IMG/VR virus record: IMGVR_UViG_3300021466_000176 | Reading direction: 5' to 3' (one strand) | Source of the DNA: a virus | Length of the DNA: 64,000 bases | Shown: positions 9,212 to 64,000 of the stretch, piece by piece | Layout: the number at the start of each line of letters is the position of its first letter | Position numbering within the stretch: position 1 is the first letter of the stretch | Notes under the pieces: model-generated | Told to the model about the DNA's origin: nothing | Database searches by the model: none | What the model saw: only the letters and a program-made list of their open reading frames with translations | Translations under genes and position numbers: made by a program

Positions 9212-9218
9212 TGAGCAG

Positions 9219-9512
9219 TCACTGGATCAGACCTTCGATTGTTTCTATCTCCGTATCGTCAACGAGAAGCTCGACGTTCGATTGTGAGGCGTTTTCCACC
9301 CAGGGGAGGATAACTTCCCCATCGAAATCGAAACCGTGCTCATAGCCGGAAACTCGTCCATAGCAGATGGATGTGCCTTGGAGGGCAACCACTCCACTGC
9401 CTCGCTGAATCGTTACGTCTCCGCGATCGTGTTGAACAGCCGGTCCGCCGACGATAACAGCGTATCTCGCTTCGCCGTTCGATCCGTCTACCAGTAGTTC
9501 TCTGTCTGGCAT
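9219..9512 (-). CDS. Hypothetical protein, last gene of the late operon
   Basis: 97-aa ORF converging on the + strand block. Confidence 0.55.
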   Translation of the reverse strand: MPDRELLVDGSNGEARYAVIVGGPAVQHDRGDVTIQRGSGVVALQGTSICYGRVSGYEHGFDFDGEVILPWVENASQSNVELLVDDTEIETIEGLIQ

Positions 9513-9538
9513 ACTTCCAGGATAACCGCTGTAGGAAG

Positions 9539-10837: not shown

Positions 10838-10841
10838 GTGA

Positions 10842-12920: not shown

Positions 12921-12923
12921 GAT

Positions 12924-13421
12924 CTATTCCATCACTATGACGCCGTTCGGTCCGAACTGTGCGGTGATACCCCCGCCGTTCGTCGTCATTGGAAGATCCG
13001 GTGAATCGAGCACACAGAGCAACCGATCGATGCTATCGTCGTCACTTGACCCGACTCTCTGATAAATCAGCGCACCACCGATGGTGTCGTTATCTATTCC
13101 TTCCCATACGACTTTATCGGCGTTTGCATTGGCTGTATCGGCTGCTGGATCGACGGTTACGTATCCGGATTCGATGGTGAGGGTTCGCCGGCCGTAGTTG
13201 ACTCCGTTGAACTCGTCTGCTGGGGGTGTGCTCGAAGCTGTAGTGCCGAACACGTCCGATACAGTTTCCCTATCGGTCGCTGCTCCCGGGTCCGGATCAT
13301 CCATGAACGCCTGTGAATCAGCCGAATTGTTAACGAGAGCCAGTCTGATCGTGTCGTTTTCCCAATCAATACTTCCGTTGAGCAAGTACTGCTTCGCTGA
13401 ATTGAATACTACTGTTACCAT
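12924..13421 (-). CDS. Putative minor tail structural protein
   Basis: FNSAKQYLLNGSIDWENDTIRLALV...TNGGGIT pattern resembles phage minor tail proteins; lies among fibre genes. Confidence 0.6.
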   Translation of the reverse strand: MVTVVFNSAKQYLLNGSIDWENDTIRLALVNNSADSQAFMDDPDPGAATDRETVSDVFGTTASSTPPADEFNGVNYGRRTLTIESGYVTVDPAADTANANADKVVWEGIDNDTIGGALIYQRVGSSDDDSIDRLLCVLDSPDLPMTTNGGGITAQFGPNGVIVME

Positions 13422-13442
13422 TGTCGTACCTCTCTTCTGACT

Positions 13443-15611
13443 TCACGGGACGTGAGCGAAGTCGAACCTGGTGAGGGCATTGTTATCCCGCACACCCCAT
13501 CCCGAATCTGCGTAGTCATGAAGTGAGTTCCCTGTGTCGTCTTGTGCTGTATCGTCCGACACTATCAGGTTCCCGTTAGTGTCATACACTGCTATCGGAA
13601 GATCGTTCGATCCGTTGGGGAACCACTTGACCTCAAGTAAGAACCAATTTCCAGTGGCGAAACTCACTGAATCGACGCCACCGATGCGGTCCGGATTCCC
13701 GTTATCGATCCGATAGAGCAGGAATTTATTCAGTTCATTCTCAAGGAATAGCTCGTACCTATCGTCCGGATCGTTCGGATTGATGCCGAACCTGAGTTCC
13801 GAACGACCACCGCCACTCGTCGGTTTCATCCAGACACGGATGGTATCGCCGACATCCGGTATTCCAGGCCCATAACCCGGATACGTGTGGATGTATCTCG
13901 AATCAAGTTCAGTACACTCGACCGAATAGGACCCGTCTTTCGCATCAGTTGGGAACGACCAATCCGACGTGTTGTTGGATTCGTAATTCCCGACGATATC
14001 TCGGTGCTCGAACGAATCCAGGACAGTAAGTGCCTTTTCTACGTCTATGTTCTTCGCTACTGTATCCGTAGCGCCACCGTTATCTATAACGTTGAGAACT
14101 GCGGTGTAGGTCCCCGAACTTCCGTAAGACGCTTGTACGGTACTCCCAGTTGTATCTACTCTATTGTCGTCGTCGAAGTCCCATTGCCAGGTATCGATCG
14201 ACCCGTCCGGATCGCTCGACCCGGTGCCGTCGAACGTGATCGTTTCCCCCGCGCTCGGCGAGGAAGGGAAATATGTGTATGCTGCTGTCGGAGGTTCGTT
14301 CGGGGGAACTTCTATCCCCCGATCAGTGGTCATGAACTCGAACCACATATCTATCGATCCTCCCTCTCCCCAATTCTTCTGGTTATAATCCCATATCTCC
14401 ACTCCTCCTACGTCGGCCGGGTCTCCGTACGTCTCGTACGGGCCGAAGTTATGACTGGTCGCATCGTAGAGGTCAGTGAGTCGTACGTTGAATTCCGTCG
14501 GGTTGGTGGTCCAATCGAAGTCGATTTCTGCGAGTATCCACCTATCGTAAGTCTGTTCACGTTTGAGAACGGTCCATTGGGACTTCGATGATACGTTATC
14601 CCTGGATACTATCCACTGTGGGTTATCAGTACCCACGCCGAGTATGTTATTTCCGTTTCCATCGAACAGTCTAATCCCCCCTCCGTAGGAGGAGGTGGTT
14701 TCATGGAACACGAACGAGAAATCGGATAGCTGGTAGGCCGGATCGAAGTATTTTCCGGCTATCTTACTGTTCGATACTGGGTCTTTCGTATACCCGGAGT
14801 GGAGGCTTGCATAGACCCTATCCGTGACCACATCGAGCGCAGTCGAGTTGTCCAGTTCCCACCTTTCGAGTGGAGTTGCGCCCTCGAAATCCTCGAACAC
14901 TTCGCCGTCGATATTCCGGTGAACATCGACGGAATCCACATCAGCAACTGTGTCCGTATCAGCATAGAATTTTATCCCACCCGATTCGAACGCTCGATCC
15001 GGATCGATGCCGTTGAGTTCGAACAGGATTGATCCGTTTTCGGATTTCACCCGTCCGGTGAGTTCGAACTCCGATCCTGTGTCGTTTGTTTCGAGTTCCG
15101 CTATATATACGTCGTTTTCGGTAAGACTATACCCCACGGTATCGACCCGGGCTGTTAATTCTGCATCCCGGATGAGATACACTTCGTCATTTGTCAAGTT
15201 GAACTCGATCCCGTAGTAGTTATCGAACGATGTATCCTGTGAAAACGCACGGAGGTCCAGTTGACCTTGACCTACTGCAAGAGGTCTGAACTTGAACTGT
15301 ACCGTATCCCCTATAGTGGGGTATACGTTGTGGCGTGGTGGTTCGAACCCCGGGAGTCCGGGTTCGAGTGAGGCACACATCCCTCCGGTACCTGCTTGTG
15401 GACCATCGGCTCTGAGCCCATACGTCCCATCGATCGCAGCATCGGTCGCCGGTGTCCAGGGTCCGAGGTCATCGCTCCATGATGGGTTCGATCCATCCGG
15501 CGGGCCTTGGACGTACCCCCATCTGGTGAGCGTTCCGCTTTCCATCGAATCGAATTCGATTGGCGACCCGGAGGTCGTGACTCCATTGATCGGTTTCCAG
15601 AACATTGTCAC
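13443..15611 (-). CDS. Multidomain PKD/lectin-like virion protein
   Basis: Clear PKD domain (NEPPTAAYTY..ITFDGTGSSDPDGSIDTWQWDFDD..GTYTAVLNVIDNGG) among three beta-sandwich-like domains. Confidence 0.8.
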   Translation of the reverse strand: MTMFWKPINGVTTSGSPIEFDSMESGTLTRWGYVQGPPDGSNPSWSDDLGPWTPATDAAIDGTYGLRADGPQAGTGGMCASLEPGLPGFEPPRHNVYPTIGDTVQFKFRPLAVGQGQLDLRAFSQDTSFDNYYGIEFNLTNDEVYLIRDAELTARVDTVGYSLTENDVYIAELETNDTGSEFELTGRVKSENGSILFELNGIDPDRAFESGGIKFYADTDTVADVDSVDVHRNIDGEVFEDFEGATPLERWELDNSTALDVVTDRVYASLHSGYTKDPVSNSKIAGKYFDPAYQLSDFSFVFHETTSSYGGGIRLFDGNGNNILGVGTDNPQWIVSRDNVSSKSQWTVLKREQTYDRWILAEIDFDWTTNPTEFNVRLTDLYDATSHNFGPYETYGDPADVGGVEIWDYNQKNWGEGGSIDMWFEFMTTDRGIEVPPNEPPTAAYTYFPSSPSAGETITFDGTGSSDPDGSIDTWQWDFDDDNRVDTTGSTVQASYGSSGTYTAVLNVIDNGGATDTVAKNIDVEKALTVLDSFEHRDIVGNYESNNTSDWSFPTDAKDGSYSVECTELDSRYIHTYPGYGPGIPDVGDTIRVWMKPTSGGGRSELRFGINPNDPDDRYELFLENELNKFLLYRIDNGNPDRIGGVDSVSFATGNWFLLEVKWFPNGSNDLPIAVYDTNGNLIVSDDTAQDDTGNSLHDYADSGWGVRDNNALTRFDFAHVP

Positions 15612-18600
15612 GTAGGTGTGAGGATGAGATAGGAAACGGATGGGTCGGTGGCTGTCGTTCCGTCTTGGAAGACCTCTACTTCGTGTTCGCCTCTACTTTC
15701 GTTCCACCGGGCGCGAGCTGTCAGTGCGACTGTTTCCCCGTTTCCTCCAGGACCGAGCAGGACGCCGATTTCAGCTTGTGGGTCCGCCACTCCGGTGGTT
15801 ATAATAGCCGTATCACCGGATAGGGTCACCGAACCCGTTGTCGCAACGCCGATTCCGATGTCTATCGGGCTCCACTGTGTACCGTTCGATGTCGCAGTCA
15901 ATACCTCATCAACATTGCCGCTCGCGGCGGTGAGATCGGCTGCATCAACCGATCCGGTGACTGCGCTTCGAGCGTCGGTGTCGTTGTAAGGTTTTTCCTG
16001 GACGATAGTGCTTGACGCCACCGTGTCGATCGACGCTTCCGAGTTCTCGATGAAATTGTCGTATATCCTGTTGTTATCGGAGTTATTTCCGGTTTCGTTG
16101 ATTCCGACCTCCACATCGTCGTTTTCTCTGGCAGTATCGGTAATCTTGTTATCCGATACGATAGTGGACGTTACGTTATCGATCCAGATTCCGTAATCAT
16201 CCCCGTTGGAATTTTCCGTTCTACCGATATCCGTGAGATTGTTTCCGACGATGTGACAGGAGTCGGATTCGATCAGGACAATACCATGTGCGGGAATGTC
16301 ACTCACGTCGTTTGACGCGATCGATGCACTCAGGACGTTTTCGATGCTGATGCCCGGATGGGAGCCGTCATTAGCATAGCTTCCATCGACTCGCACCACG
16401 TTTCCGTTCACGTAGAGACTCCGGACGGTAGCGTCCGCGTTTTCCGGTTTGTATCGGACTAACTCCCCGGAATCACCGGTACAGACGTTCGATTTGATTG
16501 TTACCGATTCGAACGAATCGTACCCTACGTCTTCGTCCGTCGATCCTGGTCCGGCTCGGGAGAGATCGAACCCACCACAGTCAATGAACCAGTTACCAGT
16601 ACCGACGAGCGTACTGTCCGGAACCGTCCCGATCGAACCTACGCTGTAGGCATTGGTCTTCGAGAACCCTCGTGCATGGACTCTATTGGACTCTATCTCG
16701 CTGTATTTAGCTCCGCTAAGGATAGCGACCGCTCCGATGCCAGTTGCTCGGACGGTATTATCGCTCACTTCGACCTCTTGAGCGCCTTGTCCGATGCGTA
16801 TCGTCGCTCCAGTGCCTTCTCCATTAACGAAGTTAGAGTTCACTACCAACGAGCCCACTTGTCCGGTCGATCCGGATTCCGAATAGACACAATTCGAACT
16901 GTCCCGGATCGTGTTGTTTCGAACGGAAACGTCCGTCGAGGGGCCGATAACGTAGATCCCGTTCCCGGCCGTGTCGTCCATCGATCCCCCTATTATGGCG
17001 TCGTTAACCGACACTGTGTGGCTTCTTTCAATGACGATTCCCGCTGATCCACAGTTCGATATATCGACTTCCTCAACGGCGCTCTCGACCGCGTAGTCGA
17101 AGTGGATTCCAGTAGCTGATTGTGTTTGACTGTCCCCCTGTATCGTGAGTCCCGATACCGACCCGCTTTCGGAAGCGACCGGAATGAGAAGCGAGTCATC
17201 GGCAGTCGTGTACTGGTTCGATATCGGTTCATCGAAGAACACGAGGTTGTTATCCGTATCTACGTCGGTGATACGCTTAATCTCGCCCGTGTTGGAGGTA
17301 TCAGTCGAACTCCACGGTGAGGTACTGGTGAGTACCGCATATTCGTCTTCAGTGAACCTGGAGATGGCCGTGTTCGAAACGACGACTGATTCGGCGTTTT
17401 CCGGAACGTTCGAAACGATACTTGAGGAGTCCCCGGCTATTCCCTCCACTGTAATCGCTGGATTCTGATTGCCTGACCAGTTGATAGTCCCGTTCCCGGT
17501 GAGTTTCTTCCCGCCGTCCAGATGTATCGTGTTATCATCTGTGGAAGCAGGGGTGTGATCACCGGAGAGGAAGACGTGTCCGCCAGTGGGTGCTGCGTCG
17601 ATTCCAGATTGAATCACTCGGAGAACATCGGATGGGGTGGAAATGTCGCCTGTAGCGATCGTGCCGGATTTCCCCGCCGCATAGATAATGGAGTTCTTAT
17701 TGTATACTTTCACGTCCGGACCCGCCCGCCGGCCAGTGTCGGCTGCGTTCTCCGCGTCCTCCGTCATGATAGGACCTAAGAATATATCATAGGTCAGATT
17801 ATCCGTCCCGGAGGGTGGGGCTGCCGCGTACGTGATTTCCACTTCTGAATCCGTTTTCGCGGAAATATAGAAATCAGTCGATGCCGGCGATGAGGTCGGG
17901 ATGACAGCAGCTACGTTAGGCGTCTCACCCAGTGTGTGGGGGAGCGAGAACGTGGTCGTTTGTCCGTCCCCGGAGACGGTTACTTGCTCGGCGAGTGATT
18001 TATACCCGGGGAGGGGTTCCCAACTCGATACCCCATCACCGTCAGATGTTAACACTTCTCCAGAGTTCGCTGAACCGGAACTTAACGATGCAGCATTGAC
18101 TATCCCCCGGACGGCTTGCCGTGCCTCATCCGATGTGAAATACTCGTGTGGCGCTTGCGTACCGTGATCGAGGTGGTTATTGATAGTGTCGATGAAGTCC
18201 TGCTGTTCAGGGATGTCTTCGGTGCTCGCTATCCCACCCGTGATCTGGTTGCCGAATACGGTGAGGCTATCAGCGACATCGAGACTATCGACCGAAATCT
18301 CCCTGAGATCAGCAACAGCAGAGACCCGTCTGTCCCGTACGTCGTCCGTTGTATCGATGAACCCGGTATTGGTTCCGATCCAGACTTCGTGTAGGACTGC
18401 TCCGGGTTCCGGAGGGGTCGGCGGTGCTGGGCTCTCAGTTTCGAATCGGATTTTGTCTTCGGGCTGTGCGGGCTCCGGTTCTCCGAGTTCCTTCTTTATC
18501 TCACCGAATTCATTGATGTAAATGATCGCCTTACGGGGGAGCGAATCGTTCACATCCCCGGTGAAATCGACTGTCTTTCCGTTTGAACTGACGAATTCCT

Positions 18601-55993: not shown

Positions 55994-57547
55994 TTACCAT
56001 GTAGACGGAACTCGTTGAATACTGCTGGTATCAACCCCACGTAATGCCAATTCTACTGAGTCTAACTGATCATCATGCCCAGAAGGAAAGTTGAGCCATT
56101 CGTGCTCGAACCCCTCCCAATCGTGCTTACCGTAATCATCAACGTTAGGTCCTTTCTCAAGCAGTTTAACCTCACCGCTCTCGAATTTCCCGGACATCGA
56201 AATAAGCCGACGCCGCTTATTACCGGATGAAGTCGTCGCCCGCATCGGCATCCCCTTGTTCTTCGCTACCTGGACCAGCCAGTGTTGAGCTTGGACTGTC
56301 TCAGCAAGGACATCCGAAACAGGATACCCCGAAACAACGGATTTCACCCAATCGATTCCAGCATCGATGGACATACCACGCTGGCGTTGTACGTCTACAA
56401 CGACGGTCTGGTTAAATTTCGGCGAGTGTGCGAGAACAGCACACGCCCACCAGTCAGTGTTCCCGGTTACCGCTTCCTCGGGATCCTCAGTGATAGCCGG
56501 ATCGACGCCCGCGACCCACACACACTTTCCGGGATCCTCCGGGAGTCGATCCGTATAGTTCAGCATCGACTTCGAGAGGATTTTGCCTGACATCGCCTTC
56601 GGGTCGTTCTGACGCTCACGTCTCCAGACAGCAGTCCCCTCGTTTGCTCCGAATCCCGAAATCAGATCATACAGGAGCTTATTGAGCGGCCATCGATCCT
56701 GCCATAGAACGTCTACGTTCCGATGGGGGTGAATATGGGACGCATCCGGGACCGTCTCTCCAGCGGGTATTTCAGAAAAGGCGACCCCAGGATACCGATT
56801 TCCAGCATCAGTAGTGACCGAGAATTCCCTGTTCTCTACGACGGACCAATCCGAAATAGCCGGTTCCACGATCGTCTTCCATGCCGGACCGTTCACGAGA
56901 TGGTGGTAGAGGTCCTCTTCGTGCTTCCGAGTACCCAAAACGACATAGGTAGTCTCTCCACCAGCACCGAGGTTCTGGTAATCCAAAAATTTCGTCCAGG
57001 ATTTCTCACGTCTGGATTCGGTTCGTTGTGTTGACCACGATACAACGTCATCGAAGATGATGACATCGAAGTGACCTCCGGTAACTCCCGAGTCATAGCC
57101 AGCGGCGAGAATCGTCGGAACATCCGACGCCTCCGACCGTTCAAGCGTGATCGAAGATCGATTGTCGTATTTGACTTCTTGACCGAACTGATCGGCGAGT
57201 CTATTTATATGAGATTTCGTCTCCGACAGCTTGCGGCGTGCCTGACTCGTCGTCTCCGACATTATAAGTATGCGCGCGTTCGGGTCATTCAACGCATACC
57301 AGGCTGGACACACTGCCGTTCCAGCTACGCTCTTCCCATGCTCGCGCGGGAGGATGTAACACAATCGCTTCGGCGAACTGAAATACGGATCGACGGACTC
57401 GTAAAAATCTTCGTAAATACGCGCGAGATGTGGCGGTATGCTCGAATCGAAGTCGAAACACTCGTGTGCGAAGACGCCCGGATGGACAAGTGGCTGTTCC
57501 GAAAGTCGCTGATAGTTCTCATGGTGTGTATCGGCTGTCTTATTCAT
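55994..57547 (-). CDS. terL: Terminase large subunit
   Basis: Walker A PREHGKS, Walker B VIIFDD, GTR coupling motif, nuclease GVDPA and HDDQLDS. Confidence 0.95.
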   Translation of the reverse strand: MNKTADTHHENYQRLSEQPLVHPGVFAHECFDFDSSIPPHLARIYEDFYESVDPYFSSPKRLCYILPREHGKSVAGTAVCPAWYALNDPNARILIMSETTSQARRKLSETKSHINRLADQFGQEVKYDNRSSITLERSEASDVPTILAAGYDSGVTGGHFDVIIFDDVVSWSTQRTESRREKSWTKFLDYQNLGAGGETTYVVLGTRKHEEDLYHHLVNGPAWKTIVEPAISDWSVVENREFSVTTDAGNRYPGVAFSEIPAGETVPDASHIHPHRNVDVLWQDRWPLNKLLYDLISGFGANEGTAVWRRERQNDPKAMSGKILSKSMLNYTDRLPEDPGKCVWVAGVDPAITEDPEEAVTGNTDWWACAVLAHSPKFNQTVVVDVQRQRGMSIDAGIDWVKSVVSGYPVSDVLAETVQAQHWLVQVAKNKGMPMRATTSSGNKRRRLISMSGKFESGEVKLLEKGPNVDDYGKHDWEGFEHEWLNFPSGHDDQLDSVELALRGVDTSSIQRVPSTW

Positions 57548-58250
57548 TTGAATCGTCTTCTCTTTCGTCTCCGTCGTCCTCTACCGGAGTTGACTCGACA
57601 TCGATCGGTTCATCGGACGATCGGGCACCGTCCTCGCCGGAATCGCCAAACATACTACTCAGGAATTCCTTGTCCTCATCGCTAATCTCTTCATCTACAG
57701 TGTGAGTGACCTCGTGATCCTGGGGCATCTGATTTGCCGCCTCGGAAAAGTCCCCAGGATACTTCATCTCGGCCATCCGCTCCCACATCCTCCAATCATC
57801 AGCACCCGCTTCTTCCATCTTATCGAGGACGTGTTGTTTCGCTGCTACACGAGCATCGGAAACTCGTACGAAGAAATCAAAATACGGTCCGCGCTCCTCC
57901 GGAGGTCCGTTCGCCTCTTCTTTCCCTTTATTAAACCAGTAATCGAAGCTCGACCTGCTGATTCCGGCTCTATCAACTGCCATCTGGACAGTCCCGCCGG
58001 ATCGAATAGTGGACTCTATCGCAGCTACCTTGTGGGCGGTGATAGTCGATGTCCCGTGAGTGGAGGAGTAATCGACCGTGAGTTCCGGCTCTTGTCGGTG
58101 TTCGTAACACGGGCCGTAATTCGTTCCTTCGACGCCTTTCCCCGCAGGTTGTCGGCACTTCCTCCCATCAGTTTTCGGTTGCCCACAAAGCCCGGCACTC
58201 GGAGTTTCAAGTGCTCCCGTCTCCCGTTCAGTTTCGTCCTCATACTCCAT
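57540..58250 (-). CDS. terS: Terminase small subunit
   Basis: CGQPKTDGRKCRQPAG..CYEH motif and HTH (AVDRAGISRSSFDYW); overlaps terL start. Confidence 0.8.
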   Translation of the reverse strand: MEYEDETERETGALETPSAGLCGQPKTDGRKCRQPAGKGVEGTNYGPCYEHRQEPELTVDYSSTHGTSTITAHKVAAIESTIRSGGTVQMAVDRAGISRSSFDYWFNKGKEEANGPPEERGPYFDFFVRVSDARVAAKQHVLDKMEEAGADDWRMWERMAEMKYPGDFSEAANQMPQDHEVTHTVDEEISDEDKEFLSSMFGDSGEDGARSSDEPIDVESTPVEDDGDEREDDSNE

Positions 58251-58273: not shown

Positions 58274-58732
58274 CTACCGATGGTCTTCCGAGAGTTCGCT
58301 TTGATCGTTAACCGGCGTATCCACGCCTTCCCACGTCGATAACACACGGATGAAGAATCCGAGCAATACGATTGCGTATCCGAAATAGCCGAGTACCTCA
58401 TACGCGATCCAGTCCGGATAGCTCCGCACGACGAAGCGACTCGTGATAAGCAACATCGACGCACCGAGCCCGATGTACATGACCGAATATACGCGTGTCC
58501 TATCCGACACTTCATCCCTCGCGTCTGCGCGCAAGTCAGTAGACACGATGAAGAAAATCCCGATCGTGACGGACATCCATCCGATTACGAGCCCGATCAA
58601 TTTCGCATAAAATATCTCGTTTTTGTTCTGAGTAGCGGAAATAGAATTTATAGCCAAGGCGATACCCACGGCTATGAGTAGAGTGATACCCACCGAAGCA
58701 GCTATCCTGATCGTTCGACGGTTTAAACTCAT
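58274..58732 (-). CDS. Four-TM membrane protein
   Basis: Four hydrophobic segments; start moved to ATG 58732. Confidence 0.65.
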   Translation of the reverse strand: MSLNRRTIRIAASVGITLLIAVGIALAINSISATQNKNEIFYAKLIGLVIGWMSVTIGIFFIVSTDLRADARDEVSDRTRVYSVMYIGLGASMLLITSRFVVRSYPDWIAYEVLGYFGYAIVLLGFFIRVLSTWEGVDTPVNDQSELSEDHR

Positions 58733-58739
58733 GTCAAAC

Positions 58740-58985
58740 TTATCCACCTCCAGCACCACCGCCACCCCCGCCACCTCCACCACTTCCGCCACCTCCGCCA
58801 CCCCAACCGGTGTTAGGTCGCAATATATCTACACCGAGGAAGACCGACATGAGCAACAACAGTAGGTAAATAGTCTGAGTGGGTATGTCATACTGGGGGT
58901 TGAACGCATCCCAAATTATCAAAATGAATAACGTTATACTCGCCATTGCTCCAAGGGCGAGGAGTACCTGTTCTCTCTCTACCAT
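58740..58985 (-). CDS. Small two-TM protein with poly-glycine tail (holin-like candidate)
   Basis: Two hydrophobic helices, then a nearly pure Gly tail; GAGGTA upstream. Confidence 0.6.
   Translation of the reverse strand: MVEREQVLLALGAMASITLFILIIWDAFNPQYDIPTQTIYLLLLLMSVFLGVDILRPNTGWGGGGGGSGGGGGGGGGAGGG
58743..58802. repeat. (GGN)n low-complexity tract encoding poly-Gly
   Basis: Run of cca/cct/ccg/ccc triplets on the + strand. Confidence 0.8.
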
Positions 58986-59003
58986 TCATACCTCGGCCTC
59001 ATT

Positions 59004-59207
59004 TTAACTTCGATGGGTGGGAGGATCCACATAATCGATAACCACCCTCAGCGACAACGCCACCAGAGACGCAATCATCCCATAATCGATCAATGGCCGG
59101 GTCGGAGGTTGAGTTTGGACGAACCATCCGATTATTACGAGAATCGTACCGACCAATAGCAGTATATCCATCAATTGGTTCAATATACTTCGTTCCAACA
59201 GTTTCAC
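59004..59207 (-). CDS. Small two-TM membrane protein
   Basis: GTG 59207 preceded by GGAGGTGA; two hydrophobic helices. Confidence 0.6.
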   Translation of the reverse strand: MKLLERSILNQLMDILLLVGTILVIIGWFVQTQPPTRPLIDYGMIASLVALSLRVVIDYVDPPTHRS

Positions 59208-59211
59208 CGGA

Positions 59212-59442
59212 TCACCTCCTTTTGACCACGAACATATCCACAATGGATATGTTAGCACTATCTACCGGGCCTGTAGTCTTCCCGTTGCCATTGGAGACGT
59301 ATAGATCGTAGAAATTGTAGTTGTGAAATCCGGCATGATACATGAGGGTATCCGCCGTCACTATCGGATTGGTGCGATTGATAGTAACCCAATCCGAGTG
59401 GTATCCCTCCTCATCCTCTATGTGATACTCGAATTCAGTCAT
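59212..59442 (-). CDS. Small hypothetical protein
   Basis: ATG 59442 overlaps the end of the upstream gene (MTEFEYHIED...). Confidence 0.55.
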   Translation of the reverse strand: MTEFEYHIEDEEGYHSDWVTINRTNPIVTADTLMYHAGFHNYNFYDLYVSNGNGKTTGPVDSANISIVDMFVVKRR

Positions 59443-59986
59443 TTTTCGGGAGGGATTTCCCGATTGCAGCTTGAAATACACCCTCGTCTTGTCTGTTTTG
59501 ATTCTCGGGCCTGCGCGCGAGGTCGTGAACAGCATCGATCAGGGTGTTCTTGTCGTGATCGACTCCCCGCATCCGAAGCGAATTGGAAAGATTATGGGCG
59601 AATTCAATGGCGTCCGAGACGCTTATCGGACGATAATGTTCGTACCGTGAGCCACATGCACACGTCGGGCGGGTCCCCTCACCCGCTGGTTCAGCAGGCA
59701 CATTACCGGATTCGTCCGCCCACTGCCTGTCCTTTCGCATCATCCACGTATCGCCCGTCCAGTATTCGTGTACGAACGAATCGTATTTCTCCGAGAAACA
59801 GTGATTACAGACGCTTGGGTCCCGCTGGATGAGGTTTTTGAAAACGTCACGAGCGGAAGTCTCATCTATGTTTGCCCGTTCGACATTCGAATTGGATTCC
59901 GAACCGGCAGCGTCGAAATCGTCACGCTGTTTCGAGTATTCAGGACTATACTGCCTCGGTAGTCGAGTTGCTCTACTATTGGACAT
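59435..59986 (-). CDS. Zinc-ribbon-like hypothetical protein, first gene of the leftward operon
   Basis: CNHC and CACG motifs; ATG 59986 chosen. Confidence 0.65.
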   Translation of the reverse strand: MSNSRATRLPRQYSPEYSKQRDDFDAAGSESNSNVERANIDETSARDVFKNLIQRDPSVCNHCFSEKYDSFVHEYWTGDTWMMRKDRQWADESGNVPAEPAGEGTRPTCACGSRYEHYRPISVSDAIEFAHNLSNSLRMRGVDHDKNTLIDAVHDLARRPENQNRQDEGVFQAAIGKSLPKND

Positions 59987-60101
59987 TGGTGAATTGGAGG
60001 GAGATGTGACTCGGTTCAGAAGAAAATACACGCAACTGATGAATGTGTACTCCGCACCTCGGCGGTCGAGGCGCAGAGGGTTGGTGTACAGTACCAGGTA
60101 T

Positions 60102-60200
60102 GGATAGTTAAACATTTCGGCTACAAATACACAACCAAGCGTAAGTAAGCGGTATGAAAATACAACAACACATCAGAAGAACGAAAACACTTTATACCGC
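60102..60200. promoter_or_regulatory. Divergent promoter region
   Basis: Minus: cgaaatg-TTTAACTA (60119-60105). Plus: gaaaacac-TTTATACC (60183-60198). Confidence 0.65.
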
Positions 60201-60242
60201 CTAACAATAGGTGTAAATGACCCTATTAAGGGCATAAAGACA

Positions 60243-60641
60243 ATGGCACTCAAAGTAGAAAGTTACGTGACAGGAGTAATACAAAAATTAGTCCTCGGAG
60301 CAATCGCACTCCTCATGAGTAGTGGAGTAGCGATGGCCCAACCCACCGAAGATCCCCTCGCCTTCGTCCGACAGACGATCGCAGAAATCGGACCGGCCGT
60401 CTTGGTAACAGTACTGGCGATCGTCGCTTTCGCCATCGTATGGCAACTCGCACAGGGATCGTACGGGGATCCATCAAAACGGTCAAAGAAGAATCAGGGA
60501 GCGATGAAATCAATGAAGAATTTCTTCCTGATACTCTTCTTTGTGGCCTTCGTCTTCGGGTTCATCTTAAGCATGTTCGGAATCACTCCACAGTTCACCC
60601 CCGATGGTGGGGGGATCGTAGAGTTATTCACCGGAGGTTAG
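60243..60641 (+). CDS. Putative VirB2/TrbC-like pilin
   Basis: Signal-like segment ending AMA-Q, two hydrophobic helices separated by a short basic loop; first gene of the operon. Confidence 0.55.
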   Translation: MALKVESYVTGVIQKLVLGAIALLMSSGVAMAQPTEDPLAFVRQTIAEIGPAVLVTVLAIVAFAIVWQLAQGSYGDPSKRSKKNQGAMKSMKNFFLILFFVAFVFGFILSMFGITPQFTPDGGGIVELFTGG

Positions 60642-60672
60642 TGGGTAACAACACAACCCGGCTCAATTTATA

Positions 60673-62550
60673 ATGGGGATAAATAAAAAAGTAGCTCACA
60701 TAGGGGTACTCCTGATAGTTCTATCAGCAGTAGTAGCACCAGCGTTCGCCCAACCTGCACCGATTAACATCACCGAAAACGGAACCGGAAACGGAACTGA
60801 AGTCGAGGTCAATAACGGGACAAACGTAACGAACAATACGACTTCGGATGGTAGTGGTGGCAGTGGTATCTACTCAGGCATCCCCTCCGCATCCGAGATG
60901 GGGTCTGCACTCGTAGACGCGATCTTCAGCGCCATGTTCGGCGGGATCCTCGAATTCTTTGCCCAGGCAATCCTGTTCATGATGGAGATCGTAGCGGGCA
61001 GAGGATTCGGAGTCGAGGACTACAACTTCCTCGCGCCACCAGGACACCCACTCGGAAACCAAATCCACGAAGCGATCTTCGGATGGGCGCTACCGCTCTC
61101 ATACATGATCGCGGCACTGTTGATACTCACCAACTTCGGGATGAACGTCGCTCGAATGAACCCGCCGAAGTTCAGCCCTGAAGAAATGGCGAGTTACTCG
61201 ATCCTAAAAATCATCCGCCTCTCGCTCGTATGGCCCTACAGATACGGACTGCTATGGTTCTCATCAGCTTTCGCTCTCACCCTCATGCCATCACAAGAAA
61301 TGGTTGCCGGAGGGTGGACCGAAGCAGCAAGCACCTCATATGGAAGTGTCGTCGGCCTCGCCATCGCGTTCAACCTACCCGGACTGTTGTTCGGGCTGAT
61401 CCTGTTCGCACACGTAGTGTCGTTCGTCCTCGCCGTGGCGCTAACGACGATATCGCCGCTTATAGACACATTCAACATCCCAGTCGGATGGGCCGGACCC
61501 ATTCAACGCAACGCTCAAAGCCTCAACGAGACACAAGTAATAATGTGTTTCTTCCCCATTCCATTCGGCGCAGTAATGTGGATCGGGTACTACTTCAGGG
61601 ACGCCTTCATCGCATCGCTCGGTACGAGTTCCTTTCTCGGGGCTCCAATACTCGTCGTCTATGACCCTATCGTCTGGTTTGCGGCCGGAATAGCCCCAGT
61701 GTCACTATTTTTCTTCAGAGGGCTCGAACGGCAAATCGTCAGCGGAACAGTCGGATTCCTCGCCGGGGCATCGGTAGCCGGGGGACTGGGATCCGGATCA
61801 GACGACGACAATCAGTCCACCCTCGGGGATTTCGATTCCAACTCCGGAGGAGATGCACCCGACGATGACATGACTCAGAGTGGCGAGTTTACTGACGGGA
61901 AACAGCAGACCTTCGGCGACTACGCATGGGGAGATAACGACGACGATGACAGCAACTCTGGTATCGGCGGATTCCCGGGAAGTACCGGCAACACCGGCAG
62001 CGGAGGTGTTGGTGGGTTCCCGGGAAGTACCGCTAACACCAGTGCCAATAGCAGGGATTCGTCAGGCAGTCGCCGGGCGCTCGGAGAAGGGGAAAGAGGG
62101 ACTACATCCGGAGTATCGGGAGCATCAACGTCATCCACTCAAGCAACCAGCGAAGACGTGGATTACGAAGGATCGCAGAGACCGTCTCCGGGTAGCGTCA
62201 CTGAAGTATCATCCAAAAACGAACTCGAAGAAGGGAGATACCACATCGGTACGCTCAACGAAGACCAAGAAAGCGTCAGAAGTGTCAAAGACTTCAGCGG
62301 TCCGGAGGGTATGAGCAAAGACGCGCTGTTCAGCACCAGCGGGATGGGAGATCAGATGTACTTCGAGACCATCGATGAGAAGACGTACCCGAACAACACC
62401 CTCTACGTTGAAAACACGGACTCTGGCGAAGTCTATGACGTTAGGGAGGCAATGAAGAAAGAGAAAGCAAGAGAACTCTACCAAACTGAGAACGAAAACA
62501 CAGCACAAAGCCGAATGAACAAGAACCGCGAGAAATTCAACAGCATCTGA
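60673..62550 (+). CDS. Putative VirB6-like polytopic membrane protein
   Basis: Signal peptide (AFA-Q), N-x-T-rich extracellular stretch, about 6-8 hydrophobic helices, long Gly/Ser/Asp low-complexity tail. Confidence 0.55.
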   Translation: MGINKKVAHIGVLLIVLSAVVAPAFAQPAPINITENGTGNGTEVEVNNGTNVTNNTTSDGSGGSGIYSGIPSASEMGSALVDAIFSAMFGGILEFFAQAILFMMEIVAGRGFGVEDYNFLAPPGHPLGNQIHEAIFGWALPLSYMIAALLILTNFGMNVARMNPPKFSPEEMASYSILKIIRLSLVWPYRYGLLWFSSAFALTLMPSQEMVAGGWTEAASTSYGSVVGLAIAFNLPGLLFGLILFAHVVSFVLAVALTTISPLIDTFNIPVGWAGPIQRNAQSLNETQVIMCFFPIPFGAVMWIGYYFRDAFIASLGTSSFLGAPILVVYDPIVWFAAGIAPVSLFFFRGLERQIVSGTVGFLAGASVAGGLGSGSDDDNQSTLGDFDSNSGGDAPDDDMTQSGEFTDGKQQTFGDYAWGDNDDDDSNSGIGGFPGSTGNTGSGGVGGFPGSTANTSANSRDSSGSRRALGEGERGTTSGVSGASTSSTQATSEDVDYEGSQRPSPGSVTEVSSKNELEEGRYHIGTLNEDQESVRSVKDFSGPEGMSKDALFSTSGMGDQMYFETIDEKTYPNNTLYVENTDSGEVYDVREAMKKEKARELYQTENENTAQSRMNKNREKFNSI

Positions 62551-62554
62551 AACC

Positions 62555-63658
62555 ATGTCAAGCAAAAGACGTAAAGTACTAAACGGGCTCGGATCAGGAG
62601 ACGAAATATTCGGTGGCGGGTTCGGCGAAAAACAACTCAAACAGGGGGACGCAATCGTGATAACCCTCCTATTAGGTGGTAGCCTGTTTATCGGTTACCC
62701 ACTTTTCGGGATTATTATGTTCGGAAACATTTTCCACCCCTTTGGCTTCACAGCAGTACTCATGGGTTTTTACCTCTCTTATAAAGTAATGAAAGAAACA
62801 CCTCCGGACAAGACCGCTTTGGAATACCTCAAAGACTGGAACCACAGAAGAACCCAAGCGGATCTGTTCACCCGGTTCGGAGATTCCGGGGAGAACTCCA
62901 CTGAATCCACTCAGGTCGGCGAACCCGACCGAGTTGGGAACCTCATCACGCGCACTGACAACACCGTGGTTGCCACGACTCGGGTGAAAGCCCGATCGAT
63001 GTCCGCCGCGTCCTCAAACGACTGGGAACGGACAGCCGATAACTTCGGTTCGTTCTGCAATAATCAGACAGCCGGGTTCGAAATATCATGCAGAGGATGG
63101 CAAATATCCGCCGATGAGATAATCGGAGATATAGACTCACGGCTGCAAGACGCTGATGTAGCTGAAAACGAGAAACTGAGGGCCGCTGTAAGAAGCCACG
63201 ATACCGAACTCAGAGAGGAAATCAAAAACCGAGGATCAACCAACCGGAAATACAGGGCCTCCATCGAAGTAGGAGTGAACGACGTAGAACGGGACCTCGG
63301 CCGTACAGAGAAGTGGAATCAAATCGTCGTGATAGGGCATATAGCGCGTTTCTTCCAATGGGTTGGCCTCTTCCACACCGAAGACAAGCAAGCCCTTAGA
63401 GAGCGTCAGAAGCGATCCCTGTCCTCCAGAATCCGGTCACTGCGACGAGGAATCGACTCGATCCATCCGGAAATGGAGACAATGGAGGGATATACGGACG
63501 AGTGGCTCGATGACATCGAAGCGTTCTGGTCCGGATGGCGGGGAGTGCAGGAACGAAACGGGAGACGCCAACACGACATCCCGGTAGTAATTGCACCGGA
63601 TACGTTCGAAGCGGACGAACTGAACGGAGAAACCGGAGATAACGGAGAAGAAATATAA
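62555..63658 (+). CDS. Putative VirB3/PrgI-like membrane protein with soluble C-terminal domain
   Basis: Two N-terminal TM helices followed by ETPPDKTALEYL; then LITRTDNTVVATTRVKARSM..DWERTADNFGSFCN; directly upstream of the VirB4-like gene. Confidence 0.55.
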   Translation: MSSKRRKVLNGLGSGDEIFGGGFGEKQLKQGDAIVITLLLGGSLFIGYPLFGIIMFGNIFHPFGFTAVLMGFYLSYKVMKETPPDKTALEYLKDWNHRRTQADLFTRFGDSGENSTESTQVGEPDRVGNLITRTDNTVVATTRVKARSMSAASSNDWERTADNFGSFCNNQTAGFEISCRGWQISADEIIGDIDSRLQDADVAENEKLRAAVRSHDTELREEIKNRGSTNRKYRASIEVGVNDVERDLGRTEKWNQIVVIGHIARFFQWVGLFHTEDKQALRERQKRSLSSRIRSLRRGIDSIHPEMETMEGYTDEWLDDIEAFWSGWRGVQERNGRRQHDIPVVIAPDTFEADELNGETGDNGEEI

Positions 63659-63660
63659 CA

Positions 63661-64000
63661 ATGAATCCAGAAGAAATCAAACCGACGATCGTATCGACCG
63701 GCGACATCAAAATCGAAGTCGATGCAGCCAGAGTAAAAGACAAGTGGTGTGCTACGTTCCACGTTGACGGATGGCCGAATGAAACCAAGCCGGGCATCAT
63801 AGAGCCACTGACGAGCCACTGGTCATCGAACGTAGACGTGACGATCGACGTGGATCCGATGAATCAAAACCGCGCGATCAACGTCTTCCAGCGGAAATGT
63901 AACGAGATAGAGACGAAAAAACTCAGTGCCAGCTCATCCGCCGAAAAGAGAAAGCACACTCGAAACTTCGATCGACACGAAGAGATACTCGACCAACTCG
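63661..64000 (+). CDS. Putative VirB4-like transfer ATPase, N-terminal part (truncated by window end; not in ORF track)
   Basis: Open from ATG 63661 to the end: ..KWCATFHVDGWPNETKPGIIEPL..NVDVTIDVDPMNQNRAI.. resembles VirB4/TraC N-domains. The ATPase motifs are not in the window. Confidence 0.6.
   Translation, partial: MNPEEIKPTIVSTGDIKIEVDAARVKDKWCATFHVDGWPNETKPGIIEPLTSHWSSNVDVTIDVDPMNQNRAINVFQRKCNEIETKKLSASSSAEKRKHTRNFDRHEEILDQL

What the first reader, a model, noticed from the sequence alone, without database searches (positions are those of the whole stretch)
60243..64000. Probable conjugative T4SS operon back-to-back with a myovirus morphogenesis operon: candidate conjugative virus-plasmid
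Seen: a tightly packed + strand operon (pilin-like 2-TM protein, polytopic protein with low-complexity tail, 2-TM protein with soluble domain, start of a large soluble protein) diverges from the same ~250-bp intergenic region as the leftward terminase operon. No integrase, tRNA or evident att site lies between them. Established: VirB2-VirB6-VirB3/PrgI-VirB4 is the minimal mating-pair core of Gram-positive and archaeal conjugative elements. Inference: one replicon may spread both as a virion and by cell contact, with the divergent promoter as a switch. I know of no well-characterised haloarchaeal tailed virus with this arrangement. The VirB4 call rests only on the N-terminal 113 aa.
Basis: partly seen in the sequence, partly recalled or inferred. 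Interest (0 to 1): 0.88.

Follow-up and report, generated by a model that had tools for sequence, protein, structure and literature searches.

The report
Conjugation-type gene module inside haloarchaeal virus
A large tailed virus of salt-loving archaea carries, inside its own genome, a complete-looking set of the DNA-mating (type IV secretion) genes otherwise found on haloarchaeal plasmids, so it may be able to pass DNA by cell contact as well as by virus particles, which has not been shown for any virus.

Summary
The four + strand ORFs exist as described. The last one is a full-length 634-aa VirB4 ATPase with intact Walker motifs (E about 1e-40 to two VirB4 models; 31% identity, E 2e-105, to haloarchaeal plasmid VirB4). 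Beyond the window the operon continues to a VirD4-type coupling ATPase. Six genes (VirB6/TrbL-like, PrgI/TraC-like, VirB4, a zinc-ribbon membrane protein, a 380-aa protein, VirD4) have collinear homologues in haloarchaeal plasmid T4SS clusters.

The module lies in a 134-kb tailed-virus record. To its left are PolB, myovirus structural genes and terminase. To its right are RNR, 31 tRNAs and ThyX. One independent 76.6-kb assembly contig carries virion genes, terminase and the whole module. Contigs from two further samples bridge the junction. I found no integrase, relaxase, att repeats or compositional break.

A distantly related viral contig (G001) also has VirB4 and VirD4, of another clade. 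22 other viruses with a related capsid protein, and HGTV-1, have no VirB4. The module is therefore accessory and was probably acquired from plasmids.

DNA transfer by cell contact is inferred, not shown. Earlier notes of this scan report similar modules in Methanosarcinales viruses. My literature searches found none described.

The parts
55994..57547 (-). Terminase large subunit (517 aa)
   Evidence: Pfam Terminase_6N 1.1e-8 and Terminase_6C 4e-4. Best GenBank phage matches reach only about 24% identity.
57540..58250 (-). Terminase small subunit candidate (236 aa)
   Evidence: PHROG 4102 'terminase small subunit', 2.3e-10.
58274..59258 (-). Small membrane-protein ORFs of unknown role (175 aa with about 5 hydrophobic segments; 81 aa; 84 aa with 2 segments)
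   Evidence: ORFs, hydropathy. No family hits. No homologue in plasmid T4SS loci.
59435..60115 (-). 226-aa Cys-rich protein, the gene that actually diverges from the T4SS operon; possible regulator (inferred)
   Evidence: ORF and CxxC-type motifs. No family hit.
60116..60242 (.). 127-bp divergent intergenic region with a TTTATA element at 60190-60195, about 50 nt upstream of the ATG (a promoter role is inferred)
   Evidence: Sequence. The sigma-70 scan is no better than shuffles. The region is bridged without differences by contigs of two further samples.
60243..60641 (+). 132-aa pilin-like (VirB2/TrbC-type architecture) membrane protein
   Evidence: Signal-like leader, two hydrophobic helices and a basic loop. 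Pfam TrbC/VirB2 E 0.12 and DUF6112 E 0.054, both sub-threshold. No homologue found.
60673..62550 (+). 625-aa VirB6/TrbL-like polytopic protein with an N-x-S/T-rich N-terminal region and a low-complexity acidic tail
   Evidence: ESM Atlas: all 10 best family hits are TrbL families, score 0.88. phmmer 1.8e-14 to L050 5416-7308, which passes Pfam TrbL_3. tblastn 5e-6 to the syntenic plasmid gene, which scores TrbL_3 3.4e-12.
62555..63658 (+). 367-aa PrgI(VirB3)-like membrane anchor plus archaeal TraC-like domain
   Evidence: ESM Atlas score 0.93 and TM 0.69/0.70 over 322 aa to archaeal PrgI_like + TraC-like clusters. Homologues lie directly upstream of VirB4 in the related loci: 34 ORF hits, best 4.5e-29.
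63661..64000 (+). VirB4 ATPase, N-terminal 113 aa in the window; the full gene is 634 aa (genome 66189-68093). THE MODULE CONTINUES BEYOND THE WINDOW (genome coordinate = window + 2528). A 477-aa tail-anchored acidic protein lies at genome 68090-69523 and has no relatives. A zinc-ribbon plus polytopic membrane protein of about 376 aa lies at genome 69564-70694 and matches, at 4e-14, the gene after VirB4 in the Haloprofundus plasmid. A 380-aa conserved protein lies at genome 70698-71840, with tblastn 1.7e-38 to Halococcus loci. An 873-aa VirD4-type coupling ATPase lies at genome 72460-75081. An approximately 81-nt G-string repeat cluster, a candidate origin, lies at genome 76779-77534.
   Evidence: NCBIfam VirB4_plasma 2.7e-40, conju_CD1110 4.9e-40, TraC 4e-19, VirB4_CagE 1.1e-14. 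Pfam AAA_10 5.1e-8. PDB 4ag5 VirB4 4.9e-9. Haloarchaeal plasmid VirB4 31% identity, 96% coverage, 2e-105. Walker A GELGAGKS and Walker B VIDEF are present. VirD4: tblastn up to 30.7% identity, 2e-63, to plasmid genes annotated VirD4 or TraM-recognition-domain. phmmer 6e-91 to L053 15556-18867, which passes Pfam TrwB_AAD_bind and TraG-D_C.

Best explanation
A complete-looking type IV secretion (conjugation-type) gene module of the kind found on haloarchaeal plasmids is an integral part of a 134-kb tailed haloarchaeal virus genome, and it likely builds a VirB4/VirD4-powered envelope channel that would pass DNA, most plausibly the virus genome itself, to a touching cell. Shown: the module holds a pilin-like protein, a VirB6/TrbL-like protein, a PrgI(VirB3)/TraC-like protein, VirB4, a zinc-ribbon membrane protein, a 380-aa conserved protein and a VirD4-type coupling ATPase. 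Their order matches haloarchaeal plasmid clusters, the reading frames are intact and both ATPases keep their Walker motifs. The module lies between the packaging operon and the DNA-metabolism genes on one contig. Inferred: the proteins assemble into a working channel; VirD4 feeds DNA into it; the cargo is the viral genome, which would then also exist as an episome, since no integrase is present; and processing uses an unrecognised nickase or double-stranded transfer, as must also hold for the relaxase-less haloarchaeal plasmids. The module was probably captured from a plasmid long ago. Its closest relatives are only 30-36% identical and its composition matches the rest of the virus.
For: Gene identities: VirB4; VirD4; VirB6-like; PrgI/TraC-like; zinc-ribbon membrane protein; 380-aa protein. 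Collinearity with the Haloprofundus plasmid (110-577-349-633 aa VirB4-350-1311 aa) and with Halococcus loci (PrgI/TraC-like, VirB4, 380-aa homologue, VirD4). Tight spacing or overlap of the genes. Viral setting: TerL, TerS, portal, baseplate J, Mu-F and an MCP-like DUF6260 protein to the left. PolB, RNR with intein, ThyX, Tmk, a UvsW-type helicase and 31 tRNAs elsewhere. The portal's best matches are haloarchaeal viruses at 29-31% identity. HGTV-1 homologues lie on both sides of the module. The proteome is acidic, median pI 4.65. Physical linkage: one 76,630-nt Logan contig of run X1 spans genome positions about 111-76,740, that is PolB through VirD4. Contigs of X2 (60053-60382) and X3 (60022-60472) bridge the divergent junction with 0 differences, and depth is alike on both sides. 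Tetranucleotide distance of the module windows is z 0.3-1.0, within the genome's range. No integrase and no flanking repeats above chance. A second viral contig, G001, with head genes about 40% identical, also holds VirB4 and a VirD4-like gene.
Against: No relaxase was found: 0 hits in Pfam scans of 152 ORFs and in six-frame searches for Relaxase, MobA_MobL and Mob_Pre. No oriT is known, and no plasmid replication or partition genes were found. The pilin assignment is sub-threshold. Neither the pilin-like protein nor the 477-aa protein has a detectable relative. The virus VirD4 itself passes no Pfam T4CP model, so its identity rests on homology to proteins that do. The module is not conserved among relatives: only 1 of 23 viral records with a related MCP has a VirB4, and 0 of the 3 that are at least 90% complete. 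HGTV-1 has none of the module genes. None of the 35 loci (two plasmid stretches, the G001 stretch and 32 metagenome loci) nor of the 8 genome loci, all holding related VirB4 or VirD4 genes, showed a terminase, portal or capsid homologue of this virus; the one structural-gene hit was a weak one (7.6e-5) of a 429-aa tail-region ORF to L053. The G001 locus used there ended before that record's head genes, which later found. The two viral VirB4s belong to different clades: G001's ranks 161 of 163 for this virus's protein. An accessory gene set need not serve the virus's own spread. The function of haloarchaeal plasmid T4SS clusters is itself only hypothesised (PMC13532300, passages read). All four read sets come from one study and X1 may be the source of the record. 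The record is a 91% complete linear contig. No expression data are available.
Confidence: 0.45

Rival explanations
1. Accessory cargo. The module was picked up from a plasmid and is kept as a passenger or as a lysogenic-conversion trait. For example, it would move host or plasmid DNA, or promote cell contact that helps the host. The virus itself would still spread only as particles.
For: Patchy distribution: 1 of 23 viral records with a related MCP has a VirB4, and HGTV-1 has none. The closest relatives of every module gene lie in loci where I found no homologue of this virus's packaging or head genes. No relaxase or oriT links the module to the viral DNA. The genome carries other mobile passengers: a TnpB-like gene, a DUF2080 gene and an intein with a LAGLIDADG domain.
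Against: A 12-kb insert is costly for a capsid-limited genome. All reading frames and both ATPase motif sets are intact. Composition is ameliorated to that of the virus. The nearest homologues are only 30-36% identical, which argues against a recent chance capture. A second virus lineage acquired a different T4SS ATPase pair, which suggests a recurrent benefit.
Confidence: 0.25
2. Repurposed machine. The virus uses the T4SS-derived channel for something other than exporting its genome. Possibilities are DNA import as in the Ced/Ted systems (scavenging DNA for nucleotides or recombination), exclusion of competing plasmids or viruses, protein secretion, or envelope remodelling during entry or exit.
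For: Archaeal VirB4/VirB6/pilin systems that import DNA exist (PMC9905601: I saw the title and abstract start in the listing; details are recalled). The virus VirD4 has a weak match to NCBIfam CedD (E 0.0027). No relaxase was found. The operon sits back to back with the late packaging region. The virus invests heavily in nucleotide supply: RNR, ThyX, Tmk and NT5C.
Against: The NCBIfam scan gave only VirB4/TraC-type models for the ATPase, and no family at all for the VirB6-like protein, at E up to 0.01. Every detectable homologue lies in plasmid-type T4SS clusters with VirD4. A VirD4-type coupling protein is, from established knowledge of T4SS, the substrate-recruiting part of export systems.
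Confidence: 0.2
3. Artefact or mere neighbourhood. The contig is a chimera of a virus and a plasmid, or it is a provirus inserted in a conjugative plasmid, so virus and T4SS are not one functional unit.
For: The record is a linear metagenome contig without terminal repeats. An approximately 81-nt repeat occurs in three clusters: at 76.8-77.5 kb, at 128.2-128.9 kb and at the contig start. Logan's assembly breaks at the first cluster, so the joins at these repeats are less certain. Bacterial conjugative megaplasmids that carry prophages have been described (PMC12934698; title and abstract start only).
Against: The T4SS-virion linkage does not depend on the repeat joins. One 76.6-kb contig holds PolB, the virion genes, the terminase and the whole module. 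The junction is bridged in two further samples. Depth is equal across the break, 14.1 against 13.4. Genes shared with HGTV-1 lie on both sides of the module. There is no integrase, no att-like repeat and no compositional step. No plasmid replication or partition gene turned up in 152 ORFs.
Confidence: 0.05

Closest known systems
T4SS clusters of haloarchaeal megaplasmids and chromosomal islands (e.g. Haloprofundus halobius plasmid NZ_CP083668.1; Halococcus sp. AFM35 locus L053; the pHdsl9-3-type plasmids of PMC13532300)
   Same: The gene order is the same: small membrane protein, VirB6/TrbL-like, PrgI/TraC-like, VirB4, membrane protein, then a VirD4-type ATPase. Six genes are homologous. Neither VirB4 nor VirD4 has a membrane helix, as that paper notes for the plasmids. 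No canonical relaxase was found here.
   Different: The carrier is a tailed virus with terminase, portal, sheath, baseplate, PolB and tRNAs, not a plasmid with Orc1/Cdc6, TFIIB, ArdC and XerA. Identity is only 24-36%. A 477-aa tail-anchored protein is inserted after VirB4. The HhH insertions and N-terminal extensions seen in several relatives (P0003, P0007, P0008 and the Halococcus locus L053) are absent.
Monoderm-type conjugative T4SS (the CD1110-family and mycoplasma-ICE VirB4 models of NCBIfam; the PrgI/PrgJ-type core of Gram-positive plasmids, the latter names recalled)
   Same: The best NCBIfam models for the ATPase are VirB4_plasma and conju_CD1110. The core is the minimal VirB2-VirB6-VirB3-VirB4 set plus a T4CP.
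   Different: All scores lie far below the curated cut-offs (138 bits against 590 and 325). No relaxase, no cell-wall hydrolase and no VirB8-like gene was recognised.
Ced (Sulfolobales) and Ted (Thermoproteales) DNA-import systems (PMC9905601)
   Same: These are archaeal machines built from a VirB4-family ATPase, a VirB6-like membrane protein and VirB2-like pilins, and they work without a relaxase (recalled from that paper; I saw only the listing).
   Different: There is no significant sequence match to Ced models apart from a weak CedD hit (0.0027) for the VirD4-like protein. The closest relatives are plasmid-borne haloarchaeal clusters. The direction of transport is unknown here.
Phage-plasmids (P1, N15 and the like)
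   Same: A virus genome without an integrase that may persist as an episome and that carries plasmid-derived genes.
   Different: No plasmid replication or partition genes were found here. [quoted passage not shown] This element has a mating-type module.
Halogranum tailed virus 1 (HGTV-1, NC_021328, Halomagnusviridae)
   Same: A large haloarchaeal myovirus with a big tRNA set, PolB, RNR, thymidylate synthase, Tmk and a TROVE protein. 14 of 153 ORFs have homologues, with sheath at 40%, RNR at 42% and one 239-aa protein at 58% identity.
   Different: Only 14 of 153 ORFs are shared. HGTV-1 has none of the T4SS genes.

Membership tests
Conjugative type IV secretion system (mating-pair formation core plus coupling protein) | VirB4-family ATPase with Walker A and B | tested here: met
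   E 2.7e-40 and 4.9e-40 to the VirB4 NCBIfam models, below their curated cut-offs. E 2e-105 to plasmid genes annotated as VirB4. Both motifs are present.
Conjugative type IV secretion system (mating-pair formation core plus coupling protein) | VirD4/TraG-type coupling ATPase (T4CP) | tested here: met
   Met through homology: phmmer 6e-91 to L053 15556-18867 and 6e-86 to L049. Both pass Pfam TrwB_AAD_bind and TraG-D_C. The virus protein itself has only sub-threshold P-loop hits in Pfam. It has no membrane helix.
Conjugative type IV secretion system (mating-pair formation core plus coupling protein) | VirB6/TrbL-like polytopic channel protein | tested here: met
   There is no direct Pfam hit. 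The protein is homologous to TrbL_3-positive syntenic proteins. In the ESM Atlas all 10 best family hits are TrbL families, at score 0.88, which counts as a lead.
Conjugative type IV secretion system (mating-pair formation core plus coupling protein) | VirB3/PrgI-like small membrane partner of VirB4 | tested here: met
   ESM Atlas score 0.93 and TM 0.69/0.70 to PrgI_like + TraC-like archaeal clusters. The gene sits directly upstream of VirB4, as in the related loci. The two Pfam models are missing from the local library.
Conjugative type IV secretion system (mating-pair formation core plus coupling protein) | VirB2/TrbC-type pilin | tested here: inconclusive
   The architecture fits: leader, two hydrophobic helices and a basic loop. 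Pfam TrbC/VirB2 scores only E 0.12. No homologue was found. The structure job could not be run.
Conjugative type IV secretion system (mating-pair formation core plus coupling protein) | Relaxase and oriT that couple an element's own DNA to the channel | tested here: not met
   No relaxase family was found in 152 ORFs or in six-frame searches for PF03432, PF03389 and PF01076. Other relaxase families (TrwC, Rep_trans, TcpA-type) were covered only by the ORF scans. oriT cannot be tested. The repeat cluster at genome 76.8-77.5 kb is only a candidate.
Conjugative type IV secretion system (mating-pair formation core plus coupling protein) | Demonstrated contact-dependent DNA transfer | not testable with these tools
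   This needs a culture of the host and virus.
Phage-plasmid | Virion genes together with plasmid replication and partition genes | tested here: not met
   Virion genes are present. No Rep/RepH, Orc1/Cdc6 or ParA/ParB family was found in 152 ORFs. The lack of an integrase leaves an episomal state possible but not shown.
Ced/Ted DNA-import systems | Sequence membership in the CedA/CedB/TedC families | tested here: not met
   The NCBIfam scan at E up to 0.01 gave no Ced model for the VirB6-like, PrgI-like or VirB4 proteins. The only hit was CedD, 0.0027, for the VirD4-like protein. Whether CedA and CedB models are in that library was not checked.
Tailed archaeal virus (Caudoviricetes) | Terminase, portal, HK97-type capsid and tail genes on the same molecule | tested here: met
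   TerL, portal (Phage_portal_3, 2.6e-31), Mu-F, a DUF6260 capsid-like protein and baseplate J. Sheath is 40% identical to HGTV-1 gp17. The portal's best hits are Halorubrum and Natrinema viruses.

The most novel reading that the evidence does not exclude
This is a conjugative virus. One replicon spreads both as tailed virions and, through its own plasmid-derived VirB4/VirD4 channel, directly from cell to cell. That would let it reach hosts that lack the virion receptor, and it would make the boundary between virus and conjugative plasmid a matter of gene expression. Independent capture of T4SS ATPase pairs by two haloarchaeal virus lineages would make this a recurrent strategy in archaea. Earlier notes of this scan suggest the same for Methanosarcinales viruses.
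Probability: 0.25. Interest if true: 0.92.

Novelty: new variant of a known kind. Interest (0 to 1): 0.72.

Why it matters
Viruses and conjugative plasmids are treated as two separate routes of gene transfer. [quoted passage not shown] Here a complete-looking mating-type machine, including the substrate-recruiting VirD4 ATPase, lies inside a tailed-virus genome. The linkage is supported by two assemblies and by contigs from two further samples.

If the module works on the viral DNA, the virus would have a second way to spread that needs no virion receptor. That bears on host range, on persistence in dense, surface-attached communities such as halite endoliths, and on how viruses and plasmids evolve into each other.

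It would also give an experimental handle on haloarchaeal T4SS clusters, whose function is still only hypothesised. Even if the module is cargo, it shows that tailed archaeal viruses can carry whole conjugation modules between hosts.

Tried and rejected
Close relatives:
- Word-based protein search with VirB4: none at E up to 1e-5 among 8000 candidates.
- The same search with the 380-aa protein: only itself.
- IMG/VR scans with VirB4, TerL and the best VirB4 relative P0002: no relatives.
- This lineage therefore has no close relative in the collections searched, and I could not test whether close relatives conserve the module.

Alignments for scans:
- Alignment A1 was too divergent for the viral scan and A2 for the metagenome scan.
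- The narrower A2 (viral scan) and A3 (metagenome and genome scans) worked.

Families and structures:
- PF26593, PF26592 and PF26449 are not in the local Pfam copy.
- I suspected an HUH motif ('HVH') in the 380-aa protein as a sign of a relaxase. It is not conserved in the three homologues, so I rejected it.
- The AlphaFold model of the 380-aa protein, from a 4-row alignment, had mean pLDDT 46.2 and pTM 0.52. That is too poor to interpret.
- Fold searches could not be started because the machine was busy.
- The structure job for the pilin could never be started.

Other attempts:
- A VirB4 tree timed out. I used BLAST ranks instead.
- No listed run that holds the stretch is on record as RNA, so there is no expression information.
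- G001's first 21 kb, which include its T4SS ATPases, have no homologues in three related viral records. I could not show that the ATPases lie inside that virus rather than beside it.
- The sigma-70 promoter scan of the divergent region was no better than shuffles and is not suited to archaea.

Literature:
- Searches for a described T4SS or VirB4 in an archaeal or tailed virus found none.
- The main text of Liu et al. 2021 (PMC8651126) has 0 occurrences of VirB4, conjugati*, T4SS, TraG or HerA. Its supplements were not read.

Full report
WHAT IS THERE

The gaps between them are 31, 4 and 2 nt.

The window is positions 2529-66528 of a 134,075-bp IMG/VR virus record. The record is classed as linear and CheckV estimates it 91% complete. 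I could therefore read on beyond the window.
- The last ORF is 634 aa.
- It overlaps by 4 nt a 477-aa ORF.
- Next come a zinc-ribbon plus polytopic membrane protein of about 376 aa, which my first greedy ORF call had missed, and a 380-aa soluble protein.
- After a 620-nt gap with two small opposite-strand ORFs comes an 873-aa ATPase.

IDENTITIES

VirB4 (634 aa):
- NCBIfam VirB4_plasma 2.7e-40, conju_CD1110 4.9e-40, TraC 4e-19 and VirB4_CagE 1.1e-14. All are below the curated cut-offs.
- Pfam AAA_10 above its cut-off.
- PDB 4ag5 VirB4, 4.9e-9.
- Walker A and B are present.
- Against PLSDB it matches 655 of 72,556 plasmid records at E up to 1e-6. The best are haloarchaeal genes annotated 'transfer complex protein' or 'VirB4 family', at 29-32% identity over 96% of the length, with E down to 2e-105.
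- An exhaustive HMMER search gave 2137 relatives at E up to 1e-3. The best is only 36% identical.

VirD4 type (873 aa):
- It matches 68 plasmid records, mostly haloarchaeal (11 are Bacillus). The listed best are annotated VirD4, TraM-recognition-domain or T4SS DNA-binding-domain proteins, at up to 30.7% identity and E 2e-63.
- Its Halococcus-type homologues score phmmer 6e-91 and 6e-86. They pass Pfam TrwB_AAD_bind and TraG-D_C.
- The virus protein itself has only sub-threshold P-loop hits, a weak DotL/IcmO match in the PDB (0.0043) and a weak CedD match (0.0027).

PrgI(VirB3)/TraC-like (367 aa):
- It is homologous to the gene directly upstream of VirB4 in the related loci: 34 ORF hits, best 4.5e-29.
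- In the ESM Atlas it matches archaeal clusters that carry the PrgI_like and TraC-like families, with score 0.93 and TM 0.69/0.70 over 322 residues.
- Those two Pfam models are not in the local library.

VirB6/TrbL-like (625 aa):
- Its membrane part matches the syntenic polytopic proteins of two loci: tblastn 5e-6 and phmmer 1.8e-14.
- Both of these hit Pfam TrbL_3 (3.4e-12; 23.4 bits against a cut-off of 23).
- All ten best Atlas family hits are TrbL families, at score 0.88, which counts as a lead.

Other genes:
- The zinc-ribbon membrane protein matches the gene just after VirB4 in the Haloprofundus plasmid (4e-14).
- The 380-aa protein matches a gene that lies between VirB4 and VirD4 in three haloarchaeal loci, two of Halococcus and one of an unclassified Halobacteriales archaeon (1.7e-38, 1.1e-37 and 2.6e-32).
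- The 132-aa protein has the layout of a VirB2/TrbC pilin. The match is only sub-threshold (E 0.12), and no homologue was found.
- The 477-aa protein has no detectable relative.

The gene order equals that of the Haloprofundus halobius plasmid (110, 577, 349, 633 aa VirB4, 350, 1311 aa) and of the Halococcus loci.

IS IT PART OF THE VIRUS?

Left of the module lie TerS, TerL, portal, Mu-F, a DUF6260 capsid-like protein, baseplate J and beta-helix fibres. Further left lies PolB.

Right of it lie a UvrD-type helicase, RNR with an intein, a TROVE/Ro60 protein, a subtilase, 31 tRNA genes by ARAGORN, Tmk, a UvsW-type helicase and ThyX.

The portal's best GenBank matches are Halorubrum and Natrinema viruses at 29-31% identity. 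The proteome is acidic, with median pI 4.65.

Only 14 of 153 ORFs have homologues in HGTV-1. These lie on both sides of the module: PolB, sheath and baseplate J on one side, and RNR, TROVE, a 239-aa protein at 58% identity, Tmk and thymidylate synthase on the other. None of the module genes is in HGTV-1.

Physical linkage:
- Logan's own assembly of run X1 gives a single 76,630-nt contig that covers genome positions about 111-76,740. That is PolB, the virion genes, the terminase and the whole module including VirD4. X1 may be the source sample, so it is not independent as a sample, although it is a different assembly.
- Contigs of two other samples bridge the divergent junction with no differences: X2 at 60053-60382 and X3 at 60022-60472. 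Depth is alike on both sides.
- All of these runs belong to one study of halite metagenomes.

The tetranucleotide distance of the module windows (z 0.3-1.0) lies within the spread of the genome, with slightly lower G+C of 0.50-0.52.

I found no tyrosine integrase, no repeats above chance (matches of 11-13 nt only) between the module's flanks, and no terminal repeats.

One caveat. An approximately 81-nt G-string repeat forms clusters at 76.8-77.5 kb, at 128.2-128.9 kb and at the contig start. Logan's assembly breaks at the first cluster. The order of the segments beyond 76.7 kb is therefore less certain. The linkage between virion genes and T4SS does not depend on that order.

IS THE LINKAGE CONSERVED?

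No close relative of this virus exists in the collections searched.

I compared all 152 virus ORFs with 35 loci holding related VirB4 or VirD4 genes: two plasmid stretches, the G001 stretch and 32 metagenome loci. Only T4SS genes, a primase-polymerase-like protein, two YdjM-family hydrolases and a TnpB-like gene matched. No structural or packaging gene matched. The G001 stretch in that set ended before G001's head genes.

In the 8 genome loci the module genes matched again, together with PolB, the primase-polymerase-like protein, a YdjM hydrolase, a polysaccharide-deacetylase protein and an HhH protein. The only structural hit was a weak one (7.6e-5) of a 429-aa tail-region ORF to L053. There was no terminase, portal or capsid homologue.

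One IMG/VR contig does combine the two kinds of genes. G001 is 46.6 kb, has G+C 0.63 and is estimated 73% complete.
- It carries a tape-measure protein (PhageMin_Tail, 1.8e-43), an HK97-gp10-like protein and a DUF6260 capsid protein.
- Its capsid, portal and Mu-F proteins are 40%, 39% and 33% identical to those of this virus.
- It also carries a fused PrgI/TraC-VirB4 protein (1139 aa) and a VirD4-like protein (1309 aa).
- Its VirB4 belongs to another clade. It is 35-40% identical to other VirB4s but 21% identical to this virus's, and ranks 161 of 163 for this virus's protein. That points to independent capture.
- Its T4SS side has no homologues in three related viral records, so I could not show that the ATPases lie inside that virus.

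Of 23 IMG/VR records with a related capsid protein, only G001 has a VirB4. Of the three that are at least 90% complete, none has one. The module is therefore accessory, not a lineage hallmark.

HOW IT MOST LIKELY WORKS

Shown: an intact, operon-like, plasmid-type T4SS gene set with both motor ATPases sits inside a tailed-virus genome.

Inferred:
- The VirB6-like, PrgI/TraC-like and small membrane proteins would form a channel energised by VirB4.
- VirD4 would recruit DNA to it.
- The nearest DNA that gains from this is the virus genome. With no integrase, it may persist as an episome.

No relaxase was found, and none is reported in the passages I read on the related haloarchaeal plasmids. Their T4SS function is itself only hypothesised (PMC13532300, passages read). 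The repeat cluster next to VirD4 is a candidate origin, but this is untested.

The rivals are accessory cargo, a repurposed machine (Ced/Ted-like import, exclusion or secretion) and artefact. I rate them 0.25, 0.2 and 0.05.

COMPARISON AND NOVELTY

The machinery is a member of the haloarchaeal plasmid T4SS kind. What is new is the carrier.
- GenBank phage records hold no relative of the VirD4 (0 of 50,697).
- No archaeal virus record matches the VirB4. The 32 matching records are 28 unannotated 'Bacteriophage sp.' contigs from human faeces, 2 Listeria phage records and 2 Bacillus phage G records.
- Four literature searches found no description of a T4SS in an archaeal or tailed virus.
- The main text of the 2021 survey of archaeal Caudoviricetes does not mention VirB4, conjugation or T4SS.

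Earlier AI notes of this scan report VirB4-centred modules in tailed viruses of Methanosarcinales and a conjugation system in an actinobacterial phage. A note on this same genome places its tRNA set on a virus rather than on a conjugative element. I did not test the notes on other genomes. They are leads, not support. If they hold, the present case is a second archaeal host group with the same theme.

Noticed in passing
Beyond the window: genome 76779-77534 (L002 14780-15535); also genome 128238-128871 and contig positions 3-66: An approximately 81-nt repeat with a G-string and an internal palindrome forms three clusters. The first has 3 direct and 2 inverted copies in a 1.2-kb gene-free gap next to the VirD4 block. 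Logan's assembly breaks there, depth rises from 14 to 56, and three other samples carry a form that lacks 136 bp. It could be a set of replication origins (ORB-like), an oriT, or a small mobile repeat. The contig itself starts inside one copy.
   Followed up: partly
G001 (IMG/VR contig, loci L054-L056): VirD4-like at 8620-12546 (-), VirB4 fusion at 12546-15962 (-), tail and head genes at about 21-46 kb: A second, high-GC haloarchaeal tailed-virus contig has head genes about 40% identical to this virus. It also carries a VirB4 (fused to a PrgI/TraC-like part) and a VirD4-like ATPase, of a different VirB4 clade. I could not show whether they lie inside that virus.
   Followed up: partly
window 6714-8072 (+), 453 aa: About 100 residues (129-228) match proteins that sit next to T4SS clusters in 9 related loci. 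The plasmid counterpart carries the NrS-1 primase-polymerase helix-bundle domain (7.2e-30). This is probably a primase-polymerase-type replication protein shared between the virus and the plasmids.
   Followed up: partly
Beyond the window: genome 81383-85831 (+), 1482 aa; genome 81178-81360; L003 14505-15746 (-): The ribonucleotide reductase is interrupted by an intein with a LAGLIDADG domain. Just upstream lies a DUF2080 'transposon-associated' gene. Further on lies a TnpB/Cas12f-like gene. Small mobile elements therefore live inside the virus genome.
   Followed up: no
Relatives of the VirB4: P0003, P0007, P0008; L053 8933-12214: Several haloarchaeal VirB4 relatives carry helix-hairpin-helix insertions or N-terminal HHH_5 domains. 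JGI names two of them 'flap endonuclease-1-like nuclease'. The virus VirB4 lacks these.
   Followed up: no
window 8615-9208 (+) and L004 3120-3596 (-): There are two copies of a YdjM-family membrane hydrolase (1.4e-15 and 8.5e-21). Elsewhere in the virus there are a TraB/PrgY/GumN-family protein (L004 14774-15649) and a 657-aa polysaccharide-deacetylase protein. These are envelope-related accessory genes of unknown role.
   Followed up: no
window 60673-62550, residues about 32-58 of the 625-aa protein: The predicted extracellular N-terminal stretch of the VirB6-like protein holds at least 6 N-x-S/T sequons in under 30 residues. This fits an N-glycosylated, surface-exposed part, as in haloarchaeal envelope proteins.
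   Followed up: no
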